A DNA stretch of 64,000 bases from assembly GCF_041886205.1 (NCBI RefSeq), contig NZ_CP169029.1; one strand, written 5' to 3'. Position numbers: made by a program. The stretch is from Escherichia coli (GTDB lineage Bacteria; Pseudomonadota; Gammaproteobacteria; Enterobacterales; Enterobacteriaceae). Position 1 is the first letter of the stretch; every line of letters starts with the position of its first letter. Of the stretch, positions 22,801 to 24,745 are shown piece after piece.

Positions 22801-24745
22801 GCACAGCTTGGGTTTGCGTTAGGATATTACTGCCATTGGCGCAGCAAAAATAGAAGCCAGAGGCTGAAGTGGGGGGAGTGGGGAACGTGCCTGAGTTTTG
22901 TTACGTTGGGTATGATGGCGTGGGCTTTACGGTAATTCTCTGACTCAAAAAGTAGGTCAGATTGTTGACAAAGTGCACTTTGTTCATGCCTGATGCGGCG
23001 TGAACGCCTTCTCAGGCCTACAAAATCATGCAAATTCAATACATTGCATAAACCACGCATCAGGCAATTTTGTGTTTATCATCAGTCTCAGGTCAGATTG
23101 AAATCTGACCCGGCCACCTTACGTTAAATTACGACGCCAGCGACAACTTCTGCTGCGTATACTCCACCAGCCATTGGCTAATGCGTGACTGCTGTTGCGC
23201 ATTCAGCCACATGCCTTGTTTTGTGCGACGCCACAGGGCATCGTCGGCGCGGCGGACCCATTCGTGATCCACCAGGTATTTCAGTTCCGCTTCGTAGAAC
23301 TCATGACCGAAATCCTCCCCGAGGTCGCTTACCGTCCCCGCATTGCCGAGCAGCAGCTCGCTGTTGCTGCCGTAAGTGCGTGCGTAATGACGCGCCAGCG
23401 ATTCGGTCAGGAACGGGTAACGGCGGCGCAGGCGGGCGGCGTAGTCATCGCGGTCGCCCTCGATGGCACCACCCGGCAGCACGCTCTCTTTCGTCCACGC
23501 CGGGCCAATGCCCTGATAATACGGCGTCAGTTTTTCCAGCGCATGTTCCGCCAGTTTGCGGTAGGTGGTCAGCTTACCGCCGAATACCGACAGCAGCGGT
23601 GCTTTGCCGTTTTCATCATGGATATCAAGGGTGTAATCACGGGTAATGGCTTGCGGCGAGTCGGACTCATCATCACACAGCGGACGCACACCGGAGTAGG
23701 TCCAGACGATATCGTCACGGCTTAGCTGCTTTTTAAAGTGCGCGTTATACACTTTCAGCAGGTAGTTGATTTCACTCTCTTCAATCTTCACCGCTTTTGG
23801 ATCGCCTTTGTATTCCACATCGGTGGTGCCGATGATGGAAAACTCGTCCATCCACGGGATCACGAACACAATACGTTTATCTTCGTTTTGCAGAATGTAG
23901 GCTTGCTTCTGGGTATGCACGCGTGGCACCACAATATGGCTGCCTTTGATCAGGCGAATGCCATAAGGCGAAGGCAGGTGCATCCCGTCGTCGAAGAACT
24001 GCTTCACCCACGGGCCGGTAGCATTAACCAGGCCGCGCGCCTGCCATGTATATTTTTTGCCGGTATCGATATCTTCCGCTTCCACAATCCACAGGCCGTT
24101 TTCGCGGCGAGCAGAGGTGGCGCGAGTCCGAGTAAGCACTTCGCCGCCTTTACGCACCACCATCTGGGCGTTGGCGAGTACCAGACGGGCGTCGTCTACC
24201 CAACAGTCAGAATATTCGAATCCGCGCTTAATTTCCGGTTTTAACACTGAGTTTGCGCCAAAACGCAAACCGGTTGATCCCGGCAGGCTGGTGCGTTTAC
24301 CCAGATGATCGTACATAAACAGACCAATGCGAATCATCCACGCCGGGCGCAGATGCGGACGATGCGGCAGGCGAAAACGCATCGGGAAGGCGATATGAGG
24401 GGCCATTTTCAGTAGCACTTCACGTTCAGCCAGCGCCTCGCTGACCAGGCGGAATTCATAGTGCTCAAGGTAGCGCAGGCCACCGTGAATGAGTTTTGAA
24501 CTGGCGGAGGAGGTCGCGCAAGCGAGATCCTGCGCCTCCAGCATCAGCACGGATAAACCGCGTCCAGCGGCGTCTGCCGCGATACCAGCACCATTGATGC
24601 CGCCCCCTATCACAATCAGATCTTTGGTTTCCATGCTGCCCTCATTCACTTTCGTTAAAGCTCATAAATGTTCGTTATCGAACATATTAGCAAAGAATCG
24701 CGCTTTAGGTAACATTGAAAAAACATTTTAGAGTGATATGTATAA

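What the first reader, a model, noticed from the sequence alone, without database searches (positions are those of the whole stretch)
22950..23128. REP/BIME cluster with GGTCAGATTG repeats at the right edge of the glgP-glpD accessory block
Seen in sequence: GGTCAGATTG occurs at about 22955-22964 and again at 23091-23100, where it forms the perfect hairpin GGTCAGATT-GA-AATCTGACC. Between them lie a REP (GCCTGATGCGGCGTGAACGCC...) and a partial REP (GCATCAGGC). REP clusters are frequent junctions for insertions and are bound by IHF and gyrase, so this may mark the recombination-prone boundary of the accessory block.
Basis: seen in the sequence. Interest (0 to 1): 0.25.

Follow-up and report, generated by a model that had tools for sequence, protein, structure and literature searches.

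The report
BIME-1 repeat splitting the glpD terminator
The flagged repeats belong to an ordinary E. coli BIME-1 (REP) element sitting next to the glpD terminator hairpin, but its outer ends match those of IS1182-family insertion sequences, suggesting how this classic repeat spreads.

Summary
GGTCAGATTG occurs at 22955-22964 and 23091-23100, the second copy forms a perfect hairpin, and a REP plus a truncated REP lie between them.

The region 22957-23089 is one BIME-1 element (Y REP, L linker with an IHF-like site, Z1 REP). It is orthologous to the copy downstream of glpD in K-12. In this rare allele (6-7 of 5426 genomes) Z1 has lost 20 bp.

The first repeat copy is the conserved outer tip of BIME-1 itself. 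The second is one arm of a single-copy hairpin 18 nt after the glpD stop. Removing the element plus one repeat copy rebuilds a canonical glpD terminator.

The BIME-1 outer flanks are terminal inverted repeats matching IS1182-family IS ends (17/17 and 12-13/16). At uvrA-yjbR and lpdA-yacH, filled and empty alleles show BIME-1 inserted at the stem/T-tract junction with the 20-bp hairpin duplicated. An IS1182-family IS on a Klebsiella plasmid shows the same signature.

The "recombination boundary" idea is only partly supported. The locus is very polymorphic, but the K-12 deletion ends inside ORF3, one deletion ends in the BIME-1 flank, and 56% of genomes replace the whole segment. No junction lies at the repeats.

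The parts
22336..22935 (+). ORF3 (199 aa, hypothetical). Last gene of the glgP-glpD block and convergent with glpD.
   Evidence: ORF list; annotated as a hypothetical protein in the identical strain LHM10-1; no Pfam hit.
22945..22953 (-). T-rich tract on the glpD-sense strand (ACTTTTTGA; the A5 run is 22947-22951 on +). Proposed displaced U-tract of the glpD intrinsic terminator.
   Evidence: The T-rich tract is kept in every BIME-bearing allele: the full A5 run in all 11 aligned E. coli alleles and both cryptic-clade Escherichia, and CAAAAG in the divergent metagenome variant L046. Joining it to the hairpin gives a terminator-like site under the same rule as the scan tool.
22955..22964 (+). 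First GGTCAGATTG: 2 nt of flank (GG) plus the 8-nt outer tip TCAGATTG of the BIME-1 left terminal inverted repeat.
   Evidence: The same tip is found at fepA-entD, yfeS-cysM and about 10 other BIME-1 loci. The base before TCAG varies between loci.
22957..23089 (+). Complete BIME-1 element. It is 133 bp here and 153 bp in alleles with an intact Z1.
   Evidence: Family boundaries come from independent loci. A 51-nt probe across the left end hits a median of 15 places per genome in 5425 of 5426 genomes.
22957..22987 (+). Left flank, which is the left terminal inverted repeat: TCAGATTGTTGACAAAG followed by the palindrome ACAAAGTG/CACTTTGT. From memory this is motif A of Gilson et al.
   Evidence: 17/17 (26/26) identical to IRL of an IS1182-family IS in metagenome contigs. 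15/17 and 14/17 to IRL and IRR of a Klebsiella plasmid IS1182-family IS.
22988..23021 (+). Y-type REP (GCCTGATGCGGCGTGAACGCCTTCTCAGGCCTAC), with the CTAC tetranucleotide at 23018-23021.
   Evidence: Sub-threshold Rfam naRNA4 (REP-derived) hit. REP definition with GTAG/CTAC from PMC3333891.
23022..23056 (+). L linker of BIME-1. The core TGCAAATTCAATACATTGCA is at 23029-23048, and the IHF-like site ATTCAATACATTG is at 23034-23046.
   Evidence: Motif search: 2 hits in the window against 0.01 expected. The same linker occurs at gyrB-yidB, fepA-entD and other loci. The site matches WATCAANNNNTTR at 12 of 13 positions (read from the sequence). PMC3333891 states that the L linker carries an IHF site.
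23057..23066 (+). Remnant of the Z1 REP (GCATCAGGCA). The 20 bp GTAGGCCTGATAAGCGTAGC present in all other alleles are deleted between 23056 and 23057.
   Evidence: Alignment of 11 alleles. The allele is >=99% identical in only 6-7 of 5426 genomes.
23067..23089 (+). Right flank, which is the right terminal inverted repeat. Its reverse complement reads GAGACTGATGATAAAC. From memory this is motif B.
   Evidence: The family end ...GTCATCAGTCTC is shared by other loci, and the next base varies. 12/16 to the left TIR and 13/16 to the Klebsiella IS IRR.
23089..23112 (-). Single-copy hairpin 18 nt after the glpD stop. On the glpD sense strand it reads C(G/A)GGUCAGAU-UUCA-AUCUGACCUG, with 10 pairs and about -15 kcal/mol. 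It contains the second GGTCAGATTG (23091-23100).
   Evidence: Folds. Present at one place per genome in 2375 of 5426 genomes, with no other copy. 100% of cells pair on the glpD-sense RNA against 92.5% on the + strand.
23129..24649 (-). glpD (aerobic glycerol-3-phosphate dehydrogenase). The stop codon is at 23129-23131.
   Evidence: Annotation of the identical strain and of K-12.
22869..22881 (.). Right junction of the K-12-type 2.7-kb deletion. The left junction is at about 20156-20170, in the 5' part of the PstS-like gene. The deletion creates yzgL.
   Evidence: Three-way register comparison. The junction sequence is present in 1223 genomes.
22975..22981 (.). Right junction of the deletion seen in the fimbrial-operon haplotype. 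It joins ORF3 at about 22535-22541 to the BIME-1 left flank through the microhomology GCGCTTT.
   Evidence: The junction is present in 229 genomes.
22900..23128 (.). Segment replaced in the alternative (O103 RM8385-type) haplotype. That haplotype has no BIME-1 or hairpin and instead carries GCCCGGTTG-AAGTG-CAACCGGGC plus TATTTGGATT.
   Evidence: Pairwise alignment; terminator scan; present in 3018 genomes.

Best explanation
Window 22957-23089 is a single BIME-1 element, also called a RIP or RIB element. It consists of a Y REP, the conserved L linker with an IHF-type site, and a Z1 REP that this rare allele has truncated by 20 bp. It is enclosed by two flanks that are imperfect terminal inverted repeats.

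These flanks are homologous to the terminal IRs of IS1182-family DDE insertion sequences, which target stem-loops. BIME-1 therefore behaves like a non-autonomous (MITE-like) IS1182-type element that carries a REP doublet.

At this locus it sits between the stem-loop (23089-23112, glpD sense) and the T-tract (22945-22953) of what was the intrinsic terminator of glpD. The glpD transcript now meets the hairpin, then the BIME-1, then the orphan U-tract.

The two GGTCAGATTG copies are the element's own left tip (TCAGATTG) and the identical sequence in the hairpin arm that abuts the element's right end.

Shown here:
- the BIME-1 identity and its boundaries;
- the TIR homology;
- the hairpin-duplicating insertion signature at two other E. 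coli loci;
- the single-copy status of the hairpin.

Inferred:
- that the glpD hairpin plus T-tract were once one terminator;
- that an IS1182-family transposase moved the element;
- that the hairpin and BIME now define or stabilise the glpD mRNA 3' end, with IHF bound to L.
For: Identity and boundaries:
- The Y-L-Z1 architecture and the 20-bp Z1 deletion are seen in an 11-allele alignment.
- The L motif is shared with other loci.
- The left-end probe hits a median of 15 places per genome in 5425 of 5426 genomes.
- The family ends are TCAGATT... and ...CAGTCTC at independent loci.

TIR homology:
- An IS with an NF033551 IS1182-family transposase (426 bits) has an IRL identical to the BIME-1 left flank over 26 nt. 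It sits directly after 10 different terminator hairpins.
- The Klebsiella plasmid IS1182-family IS has the IRs TCAGACTGCTGACAAAG and TCAGATTAATGACAAAC. It is flanked on both sides by the same 18-bp hairpin, with AAA before the left copy and TTTTTTT after the right copy.

Insertion signature:
- At uvrA-yjbR, the empty K-12 site is AGGCCGCTTTCTGAGCGGCC|TTTTCC. The filled site is hairpin|BIME-1|hairpin-TTTTCC.
- The same pattern holds at lpdA-yacH.
- 4 of 11 distinct BIME-1 loci have the hairpin duplicated at both ends, and 2 more have a hairpin abutting one end.

glpD locus:
- No terminator-like site exists in the present arrangement.
- Deleting the element plus one repeat copy gives GGGTCAGAT-TTCA-ATCTGACCT followed by ACTTTTTGAG, which passes the same rule.
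- The alternative haplotype has its own terminator at the same position.
- All three variable stem positions give G.U on the glpD-sense RNA but A.C on the other strand.

Literature:
- BIME-1 is y + L + z1, single copy, with an IHF site in L (PMC3333891).
- IS1272 and TnSha1 (IS1182 family) integrate into terminator hairpins (PMC4923244).
- A proposed (not yet demonstrated) model for IS1272 transposition includes a pathway that would duplicate the whole stem-loop; the IS1272 insertions actually observed replaced the stem-loop without any target duplication (PMC5678879).
Against: - No empty-site allele (hairpin plus T-tract without BIME-1) was found for glpD. It is absent from 5426 E. coli genomes and from the metagenome scan. 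The only two other Escherichia species with the hairpin also carry the BIME-1.
- At glpD the hairpin is on one side only, so the clearest signature (a duplicated hairpin) is absent.
- The 8-nt identity between the hairpin arm and the element tip is not explained by simple insertion into an unrelated terminator.
- The strand asymmetry of the stem substitutions rests on 3 events (p about 0.125).
- The right TIR is degenerate at its very tip (CTC rather than CTGA).
- No E. coli chromosome carries a DNA-level relative of the Klebsiella IS, so no cognate transposase is identified in E. coli.
- Some BIME-1 copies, such as gyrB-yidB, lack the flanks.
- Names such as 'motif A/B' are from memory.
Confidence: 0.6

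Rival explanations
1. One reading: the REP/BIME cluster with its GGTCAGATTG repeats is a recombination-prone junction that marks the boundary of the glgP-glpD accessory block.
For: - The locus has at least five configurations.
- One deletion endpoint lies in the BIME-1 left flank, in 229 genomes.
- The K-12 deletion ends about 80 bp away.
- The window allele carries a 20-bp deletion inside Z1.
Against: - No junction lies at the GGTCAGATTG copies.
- The commonest deletion (1223 genomes) joins two coding sequences by microhomology.
- In 3018 genomes the BIME and the hairpin are themselves part of the replaced segment.
- The BIME-1 plus hairpin arrangement is stable enough to be shared with two cryptic-clade Escherichia species.
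Confidence: 0.25
2. The hairpin is not a pre-existing glpD terminator. It is a relic made of the two terminal tips (TCAGATTG / CAATCTGA-like) of an earlier, internally deleted or excised IS1182-type element. It was later re-used as a stem-loop target by the present BIME-1 and co-opted as the glpD 3' structure.
For: - The hairpin arms TCAGATT and AATCTGA equal the family IR tip and its complement, with the interiors facing inward.
- The right flank of the complete metagenome IS (L069) also holds a hairpin containing its own 9-nt IR tip TCAGACTGT.
- IS1272 shows IRL-side duplications and replaces stem-loops with its own ends (PMC5678879).
Against: - No intermediate forms were seen.
- The same 20-mer occurs as an ordinary terminator in unrelated bacteria with no IS nearby.
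- The flanks AGG...CCT are inverted, not direct as a target duplication would be.
- The idea rests on two loci.
Confidence: 0.2
3. The 11-nt direct repeat AGGTCAGATTG is a classical target-site duplication, or a chance repeat, flanking a REP cluster moved by a RAYT (Y1) transposase.
For: - The repeat is exact and brackets the element.
- REP/BIME mobility is usually attributed to RAYTs (PMC3333891, PMC2817692).
- About 3 such repeats per 64 kb are expected by chance.
Against: - Eight of the 11 nt are the family-conserved element tip found at unrelated loci, so they cannot be duplicated target DNA.
- IS200/IS605-type enzymes make no target duplications (PMC2817692).
- Divergent alleles keep only G+TCAGATTG on the left: CGG in MOD1-EC7003 and TTG in L046.
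Confidence: 0.05
4. The perfect 20-bp palindrome is a DNA-binding site (operator) for a regulator of glpD or of the neighbouring operon.
For: It is a perfect 9-2-9 inverted repeat.
Against: - It lies at the 3' ends of two convergent genes.
- In half of the distinct hairpin alleles sampled (4 of 8), including K-12, O157 and both cryptic-clade Escherichia, the DNA palindrome carries a C/A mismatch, whereas RNA pairing on the glpD strand is always kept.
- It does not resemble the GlpR operator as I recall it.
Confidence: 0.03

Closest known systems
BIME-1 (also described as RIP / RIB elements) of E. coli
   Same: It has two inverted REPs (y and z1), head to head around the conserved long L linker with an IHF consensus. 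It is a single unit, extragenic, and lies between convergent genes. It is orthologous to the copy downstream of glpD in K-12 (PMC3333891).
   Different: In this allele z1 has lost its GTAG foot, 5' arm and loop through a 20-bp deletion, so only one REP hairpin remains. The outer flanks are shown here to be TIRs of IS1182 type, which the literature I could search does not state.
IS1182-family insertion sequences (IS1272 / TnSha1; the IS on Klebsiella plasmid NZ_CP110518.1; ISEfa7)
   Same: The terminal IR sequence is TCAGAyTGnTGACAAAg. [quoted passage not shown]
   Different: BIME-1 has no transposase gene, is 153 bp long, and its interior is a REP doublet plus an IHF site. No cognate IS was found in E. 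coli chromosomes. Mobilisation was not tested.
Bacterial MITEs (ERIC, Correia/NEMIS, RUP)
   Same: It is short and non-coding, bounded by TIRs, and present in multiple copies. It shows presence/absence polymorphism with clean empty sites, carries an IHF site as Correia does, and lies next to gene ends.
   Different: Its target duplication is a whole 18-28-bp hairpin rather than a fixed short TSD. Reviews treat REP/BIME as lacking MITE signatures (PMC3184786).
BIME-2 / REP arrays that bind DNA gyrase
   Same: It contains a y-type REP.
   Different: BIME-2 has y + z2 with short linkers in tandem arrays and is the class enriched for gyrase cleavage (PMC6379681, PMC2817692). None of that is present here.
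Rho-independent terminator
   Same: A 10-bp stem-loop lies 18 nt after the glpD stop, and a T5-containing tract is present in the same intergenic region.
   Different: The stem and the T-tract are separated by the 133-bp BIME-1, so the present sequence fails the terminator rule. Only the reconstruction passes it.

Membership tests
BIME-1 (RIP/RIB) | Two REPs of types y and z1 in inverted orientation, each with the GTAG/CTAC foot | tested here: inconclusive
   The Y REP with CTAC is intact (22988-23021). Z1 is intact in 10 other alleles, but the window keeps only its 3' arm, 23057-23066. The y/z1 typing rests on length and sequence recalled from the literature plus the BIME-1 definition in PMC3333891.
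BIME-1 (RIP/RIB) | Long conserved L linker carrying an IHF consensus | tested here: met
   TGCAAATTCAATACATTGCA at 23029-23048 is shared with the gyrB-yidB, fepA-entD, yfeS-cysM and other copies. ATTCAATACATTG matches WATCAANNNNTTR at 12 of 13 positions (read from the sequence).
BIME-1 (RIP/RIB) | Single unit (not tandem), extragenic, dispersed multi-copy family | tested here: met
   There is one unit between convergent ORF3 and glpD. Other copies lie elsewhere in the genome (hits H68-70, median 15 places per genome).
BIME-1 (RIP/RIB) | IHF actually binds the element | not testable with these tools
   Only the sequence consensus could be checked.
BIME-2 (gyrase-binding REP array) | y + z2 REPs with short S linker in tandem repeats | tested here: not met
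   The unit is single with a long L linker and has no tandem copies.
MITE derived from an IS1182-family IS | Terminal inverted repeats matching the IRs of the IS family | tested here: met
   Left end: 17/17 (26/26) to the metagenome IS IRL, and 15/17 and 14/17 to the Klebsiella IS IRs. Right end: 12/16 to the left end and 13/16 to the Klebsiella IRR. The transposases were identified as IS1182 family (NF033551, 426 bits; annotation).
MITE derived from an IS1182-family IS | Same target choice and target duplication as the IS (stem-loop targets, whole-hairpin duplication) | tested here: met
   Met for the family: uvrA-yjbR and lpdA-yacH filled and empty sites with a 20-bp hairpin TSD, 4 of 11 loci with duplicated hairpins, and the Klebsiella IS with an 18-bp hairpin TSD. 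At the glpD copy itself it is only partly met, with the hairpin at one end and the T-tract at the other.
MITE derived from an IS1182-family IS | Presence/absence polymorphism with an intact empty site at this locus | tested here: not met
   No empty glpD site was found in 5426 E. coli genomes or in metagenomes. Both outgroup hits carry the element.
MITE derived from an IS1182-family IS | Mobilisation in trans by a cognate transposase | not testable with these tools
   No DNA-level relative of the Klebsiella plasmid IS (the only IS queried) lies on any of 5426 E. coli chromosomes; the 6 matches, all on plasmids, were partial (at most 52% of the IS) at 70-75% identity. A protein-level search of the chromosomes was not possible.
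Rho-independent terminator (for the hairpin) | G+C-containing stem-loop immediately followed by a U-rich tract | tested here: not met
   The scan finds none in the window or in K-12. The tail after the stem is UGAGACUGAUGAU. The feature is met only after in-silico removal of BIME-1.
Rfam naRNA4 / ES036 (REP-derived sRNAs) | Score at or above the family gathering threshold | tested here: not met
   naRNA4 scores 28.6 bits against 59.5. ES036 scores 24.2 against 37.6.

The most novel reading that the evidence does not exclude
E. coli BIME-1 (RIP/RIB), regarded for decades as a REP mosaic moved, if at all, by RAYT Y1 transposases, is in its flank-bearing form an IS1182-family MITE. It has IS1182-type terminal inverted repeats. 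It inserts at the stem/T-tract junction of intrinsic terminators and duplicates the whole hairpin. It is still polymorphic (filled and empty alleles) in E. coli populations. The glpD copy is one such insertion that split the glpD terminator. I found no statement of this link in the searchable literature.
Probability: 0.4. Interest if true: 0.7.

Novelty: new member of a known kind. Interest (0 to 1): 0.45.

Why it matters
As flagged, the feature is ordinary. It is a known type of REP/BIME element at a known position, and its role as an "island boundary" is weak.

The broader value is the link it exposes. How BIMEs spread has been open since the 1980s. TIRs matching IS1182-family ends, together with clean filled and empty sites carrying hairpin-sized duplications, give a concrete and testable transposition mechanism for BIME-1.

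The link would also explain why these elements sit at the 3' ends of transcription units. It predicts that each insertion rewires termination, separating a stem from its U-tract or creating two hairpins. At glpD this should affect mRNA 3'-end formation and read-through into the convergent operon.

Tried and rejected
- Rfam scan of 22600-23500: only sub-threshold REP-derived hits.
- Promoter and terminator scans of the region: nothing found.
- Hairpin as a dispersed repeat: rejected. It occurs at one place per genome in E. coli. The genome-collection scan gave 2 Escherichia hits at this locus plus 13 hits in unrelated taxa. Six of those 13 are one conserved Lachnospiraceae/Eubacterium terminator, and the rest are at chance level.
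- 11-bp target-site duplication: rejected, because 8 nt are the family-conserved tip.
- Search for an empty glpD site by a reconstructed query in E. coli genomes and as an exact pattern in metagenomes: none found.
- The left flank AGG as a remnant (CCT) of a second hairpin copy, lost by slippage between the two CAATCTGA repeats: possible, but weakened because the three bases vary (AGG, CGG, TTG) among divergent alleles.
- Looking for REP annotation in NC_000913.3: this copy lists no repeat features there.
- Literature: Gilson 1991 and Bachellier 1997 are not held. There are no papers on glpD+BIME or on yzgL, and no paper holds both BIME and IS1182.
- Search for a relative of the Klebsiella IS in E. 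coli chromosomes: none.
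Full report
**1. Observation**

The window is E. coli. Region 15-30 kb reads glgA, glgP (17373-19820, +), three ORFs, then glpD (23129-24649, -), glpE, glpG, glpR and rtcR. It is identical to strain LHM10-1. The three ORFs are:
- 19937-21454, 505 aa, with a Pfam PBP_like_2 domain and annotated 'PstS family';
- 21557-22333, 258 aa;
- 22336-22935, 199 aa.

GGTCAGATTG is exact at 22955-22964 and 23091-23100, and nowhere else in the window. With the preceding A it forms an 11-nt direct repeat 136 nt apart. The second copy pairs with 23102-23110 as a perfect 9-bp stem. The REP starts at 22988 and the partial REP is at 23057-23066.

An exact 11-mer repeated within 200 nt is not unusual at the scale of the window (7 observed, 3.1 +/- 1.9 in shuffles). 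What makes this one non-random is its position, described in section 3.

**2. What the REP cluster is**

Eleven alleles of the intergenic region were aligned. They show a complete BIME-1 in K-12, O157:H7, B, ESDR8 and other strains:
- a 34-nt REP ending in CTAC;
- a 35-nt linker containing TGCAAATTCAATA(T/C)ATTGCA;
- a 29-nt REP starting with GTAG.

This fits the published definition of BIME-1: y and z1 REPs, single copy, and a long conserved L linker that frequently carries an IHF site (PMC3333891; also PMC2817692).

The linker motif is highly specific (2 hits in the window against 0.01 expected). It recurs at gyrB-yidB, fepA-entD and yfeS-cysM. ATTCAATACATTG (23034-23046) matches the IHF consensus WATCAANNNNTTR at 12 of 13 positions.

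This allele is rare: 6-7 of 5426 complete E. coli genomes are >=99% identical.

Rfam gives only sub-threshold hits to REP-derived RNAs.

**3. What the GGTCAGATTG copies are**

A 51-nt probe over the first copy and the left REP arm (22950-23000) hits a median of 15 places per genome in 5425 of 5426 genomes. Matches at other loci start at window position 22955-22957.

Reading those loci shows that the dispersed element begins with (G/A)TCAGATT(G/A)TTGACAAAGTGC... and ends with ...GTTTGTCATCAGTCTC. An exact-pattern scan of metagenome contigs gave 85 loci with 27 distinct outer flanks. About 11 of these are enterobacterial BIME-1 loci with the same two ends, and the base outside each end varies.

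The BIME-1 in the window is therefore 22957-23089. The first GGTCAGATTG is two flank bases plus the element's own 8-nt tip.

The second copy lies just outside the other end, after a 2-nt AG. It is one arm of a hairpin that is strictly locus-specific. That hairpin is present at one place, downstream of glpD, in 2375 of 5426 genomes, with no other copy detectable.

Across 100,044 species genomes, the hairpin pattern was found at this locus in only two cryptic-clade Escherichia, and both carry the BIME-1. The other 13 hits are unrelated. Six of them are one conserved Lachnospiraceae/Eubacterium terminator.

**4. The hairpin and the glpD 3' end**

On the glpD-sense strand the hairpin starts 18 nt after the stop codon. 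It has 10 pairs and folds at about -15 to -16.5 kcal/mol. It is not followed by a U-tract, and the terminator scan finds nothing in the window or in K-12.

Among 13 sequences (8 distinct), three stem positions vary. All three give G.U on the glpD-sense RNA and A.C on the opposite strand, so 100% of cells pair on one strand against 92.5% on the other. This agrees in direction with a role as RNA on the glpD transcript, but it rests on only three events (p about 0.125).

On the far side of the BIME-1, every BIME-bearing allele keeps a T-rich tract (ACTTTTTGA in the glpD sense; ACTTTTGGA in the divergent variant L046). Deleting one repeat copy plus the element in silico gives GGGTCAGAT-TTCA-ATCTGACCT followed by ACTTTTTGAG, which passes the same terminator rule.

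The alternative haplotype, which lacks the BIME-1, has its own terminator-like hairpin at the same place: GCCCGGTTG-AAGTG-CAACCGGGC followed by TATTTGGATT.

**5. The BIME-1 flanks are IS1182-type terminal inverted repeats**

Ten AT-rich metagenome contigs recovered by the same scan carry TCAGATTGTTGACAAAGTGCACTTTG, which is 26/26 identical to the BIME-1 left flank. In them it forms the left end of an IS. That IS has these properties:
- Its 464-aa protein is an IS1182-family transposase (Pfam DDE_Tnp_1_6, DUF772 and DDE_Tnp_1; NCBIfam NF033551, 426 bits against a cut-off of 270).
- Its right end reads TCAGACTGTTGACAAAA in reverse complement.
- Each of its 10 insertion sites lies directly after a different terminator-like hairpin.

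An IS1182-family IS on Klebsiella IncC plasmid NZ_CP110518.1 has the IRs TCAGACTGCTGACAAAG and TCAGATTAATGACAAAC. It is flanked on both sides by the identical 18-bp hairpin GGCCAGCAATAGCTGGCC, with AAA before the left copy and TTTTTTT after the right copy. ISEfa7 has related IRs.

The BIME-1 right end in reverse complement, GAGACTGATGACAAAC, matches the left end at 12 of 16 positions and the Klebsiella IRR at 13 of 16.

IS1182-family members are reported to integrate into terminator hairpins (IS1272 and TnSha1, PMC4923244). For IS1272 every observed insertion replaced the stem-loop without target duplication. The authors' proposed, still untested, model also allows a pathway that would duplicate the whole stem-loop, depending on which foot is attacked (PMC5678879).

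**6. Insertion signature of BIME-1**

Among 11 distinct BIME-1 loci:
- four have the flanking hairpin duplicated at both ends, with stems conserved and loops diverged;
- two have a hairpin abutting the left end only;
- the glpD locus has one at the right end only.

Two loci are polymorphic in E. coli and give filled and empty pairs.

*uvrA-yjbR.* The K-12 site is TAAtcgttaAGGCCGCTTTCTGAGCGGCC|TTTTCC. Strain MS20657 has AGGCCGCTTTTTGAGCGGCC|TCAGATTATTGAC...CATCATTCTC|AGGCCGCTTTCTGAACGGTC-TTTTCC. About 88 genomes are filled and 5335 are empty.

*lpdA-yacH.* The empty site is AAGCGGCTAACCACGCCGCT|TTTTTT. The filled site is AAGCGGCTATTCTGGCCGCT|TCAGATTGTTGAT...CAGTCTT|AAGCGGCTAACAACGCCGCT-TTTTT. 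A few hundred genomes are filled and 4884 are empty.

In both cases the element lies exactly between the stem and the T-tract of an intrinsic terminator, and the 20-bp hairpin is duplicated. This is the position proposed for the glpD copy in section 4.

Reviews treat REP/BIME as lacking MITE signatures (PMC3184786) and attribute their mobility to RAYTs (PMC3333891, PMC2817692, PMC3733652). I found no paper in the searchable library that links BIME and IS1182. The key early BIME papers are not held, so priority cannot be excluded. No E. coli chromosome carries a DNA-level relative of the Klebsiella IS.

**7. What remains unexplained at glpD**

The hairpin arms (TCAGATT and AATCTGA) are identical to the IR tip and its complement. 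No other BIME-1 locus shows this.

The one complete metagenome IS, however, has a right-flank hairpin that contains its own 9-nt tip. Either stem-loops resembling the ends are preferred targets, or such hairpins are relics made of IR tips. I give the relic reading about 0.2.

A lost second hairpin copy is possible, through slippage between the two CAATCTGA repeats. It is weakly supported, because the three bases it would leave behind vary among divergent alleles.

**8. The 'accessory block boundary' idea**

The glgP-glpD interval has at least five configurations:

| Configuration | Example |
|---|---|
| 3 genes plus BIME | window, O157, B |
| 4 genes plus BIME | ESDR8 |
| yzgL remnant plus BIME | K-12 |
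| 4 genes without BIME | O103 RM8385 |
| fimbrial operon, ORF3 fragment, then BIME lacking its left tip | S1-SRB-02-B, ETEC4075 |

Right-end types are near-balanced: 2375 genomes have BIME plus hairpin and 3018 have the alternative terminator.

Junctions:
- The K-12 deletion joins about 20156-20170 to about 22869-22881 through imperfect microhomology inside two coding sequences. It occurs in 1223 genomes.
- The fimbrial-type deletion joins ORF3 at about 22535-22541 to the BIME-1 left flank at 22975-22981 through GCGCTTT. It occurs in 229 genomes.
- The two main haplotypes diverge over 22900-23128.

The BIME therefore lies in a junction-rich zone and once served as an endpoint. It is not the fixed boundary, and the repeats themselves are not junctions.

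**9. Verdict**

The feature is a known kind, at a position where K-12 has the orthologous copy.

The repeats are explained as the element tip plus a hairpin arm. The most likely history is a BIME-1 insertion between the stem and the U-tract of the glpD terminator (confidence about 0.6). The boundary interpretation is only partly supported.

The by-product deserves follow-up. BIME-1 shows IS1182-type TIRs and hairpin-duplicating insertions with clean empty sites.

Noticed in passing
window 19937-22935; loci L002-L013: The glgP-glpD block is an uncharacterised operon: a 505-aa membrane-anchored PstS-like protein with a PBP_like_2 domain, plus 2-3 small proteins without Pfam hits. It exists in several deeply diverged allelic forms. 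K-12 yzgL is an out-of-frame fusion remnant of its first and last genes.
   Followed up: partly
window 61803-61952: A second BIME-1, in the opposite orientation. Its IS1182-like left tip (reverse complement TCAGTTTGCTGACAAAG, ending at 61929) directly abuts a terminator hairpin AAAGGCGC-CGAA-GCGCCTTTTT (61930-61952). Its other flank is missing.
   Followed up: partly
L120/L121 (uvrA-yjbR) and L122/L123 (lpdA-yacH): BIME-1 presence/absence polymorphisms in E. coli with intact empty sites. The element lies between the terminator stem and the T-tract, and the 20-bp hairpin is duplicated. The two hairpin copies have since diverged, in the loop at lpdA-yacH and in the loop and 3' arm at uvrA-yjbR.
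   Followed up: yes
L069 2375-4043; also L063, L044, L054, L072, L079, L085, L098, L102, L112: An IS1182-family IS in AT-rich (mostly human-gut) metagenome contigs. It has 10 different insertion sites, each directly after a different terminator-like hairpin. The host organism was not identified.
   Followed up: partly
L118 484-2092 (Klebsiella pneumoniae plasmid NZ_CP110518.1): An IS1182-family IS flanked on both sides by the same 18-bp hairpin GGCCAGCAATAGCTGGCC. This is a whole-terminator target duplication, with the A-tract left of one copy and the T-tract right of the other.
   Followed up: yes
L069 4044-4075: The hairpin just outside the right end of the metagenome IS (AACGACAGTC-ATCA-GACTGTCGTT followed by a T-run) contains the IS's own 9-nt tip TCAGACTGT. 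This parallels the glpD hairpin and is unexplained.
   Followed up: no
L007 and L013 (E. coli S1-SRB-02-B, ETEC4075): In 229 genomes a chaperone-usher fimbrial operon occupies the glgP-glpD interval. It is followed by a 5' fragment of ORF3 fused to the truncated BIME-1 flank.
   Followed up: partly
L015, L017, L018, L019, L023, L025: The exact 20-mer GG(T/C)CAGATTGAAATCTGACC is a conserved intergenic hairpin at one orthologous locus in six Lachnospiraceae/Eubacterium genomes, with no IS nearby. Apparently it arose independently.
   Followed up: partly
window 38672-38693: A perfect palindrome, TGCCGGATGC-GAT-GCATCCGGCA, resembles a REP arm pair. It was picked up by the REP pattern and by the hairpin count and was not examined further.
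   Followed up: no
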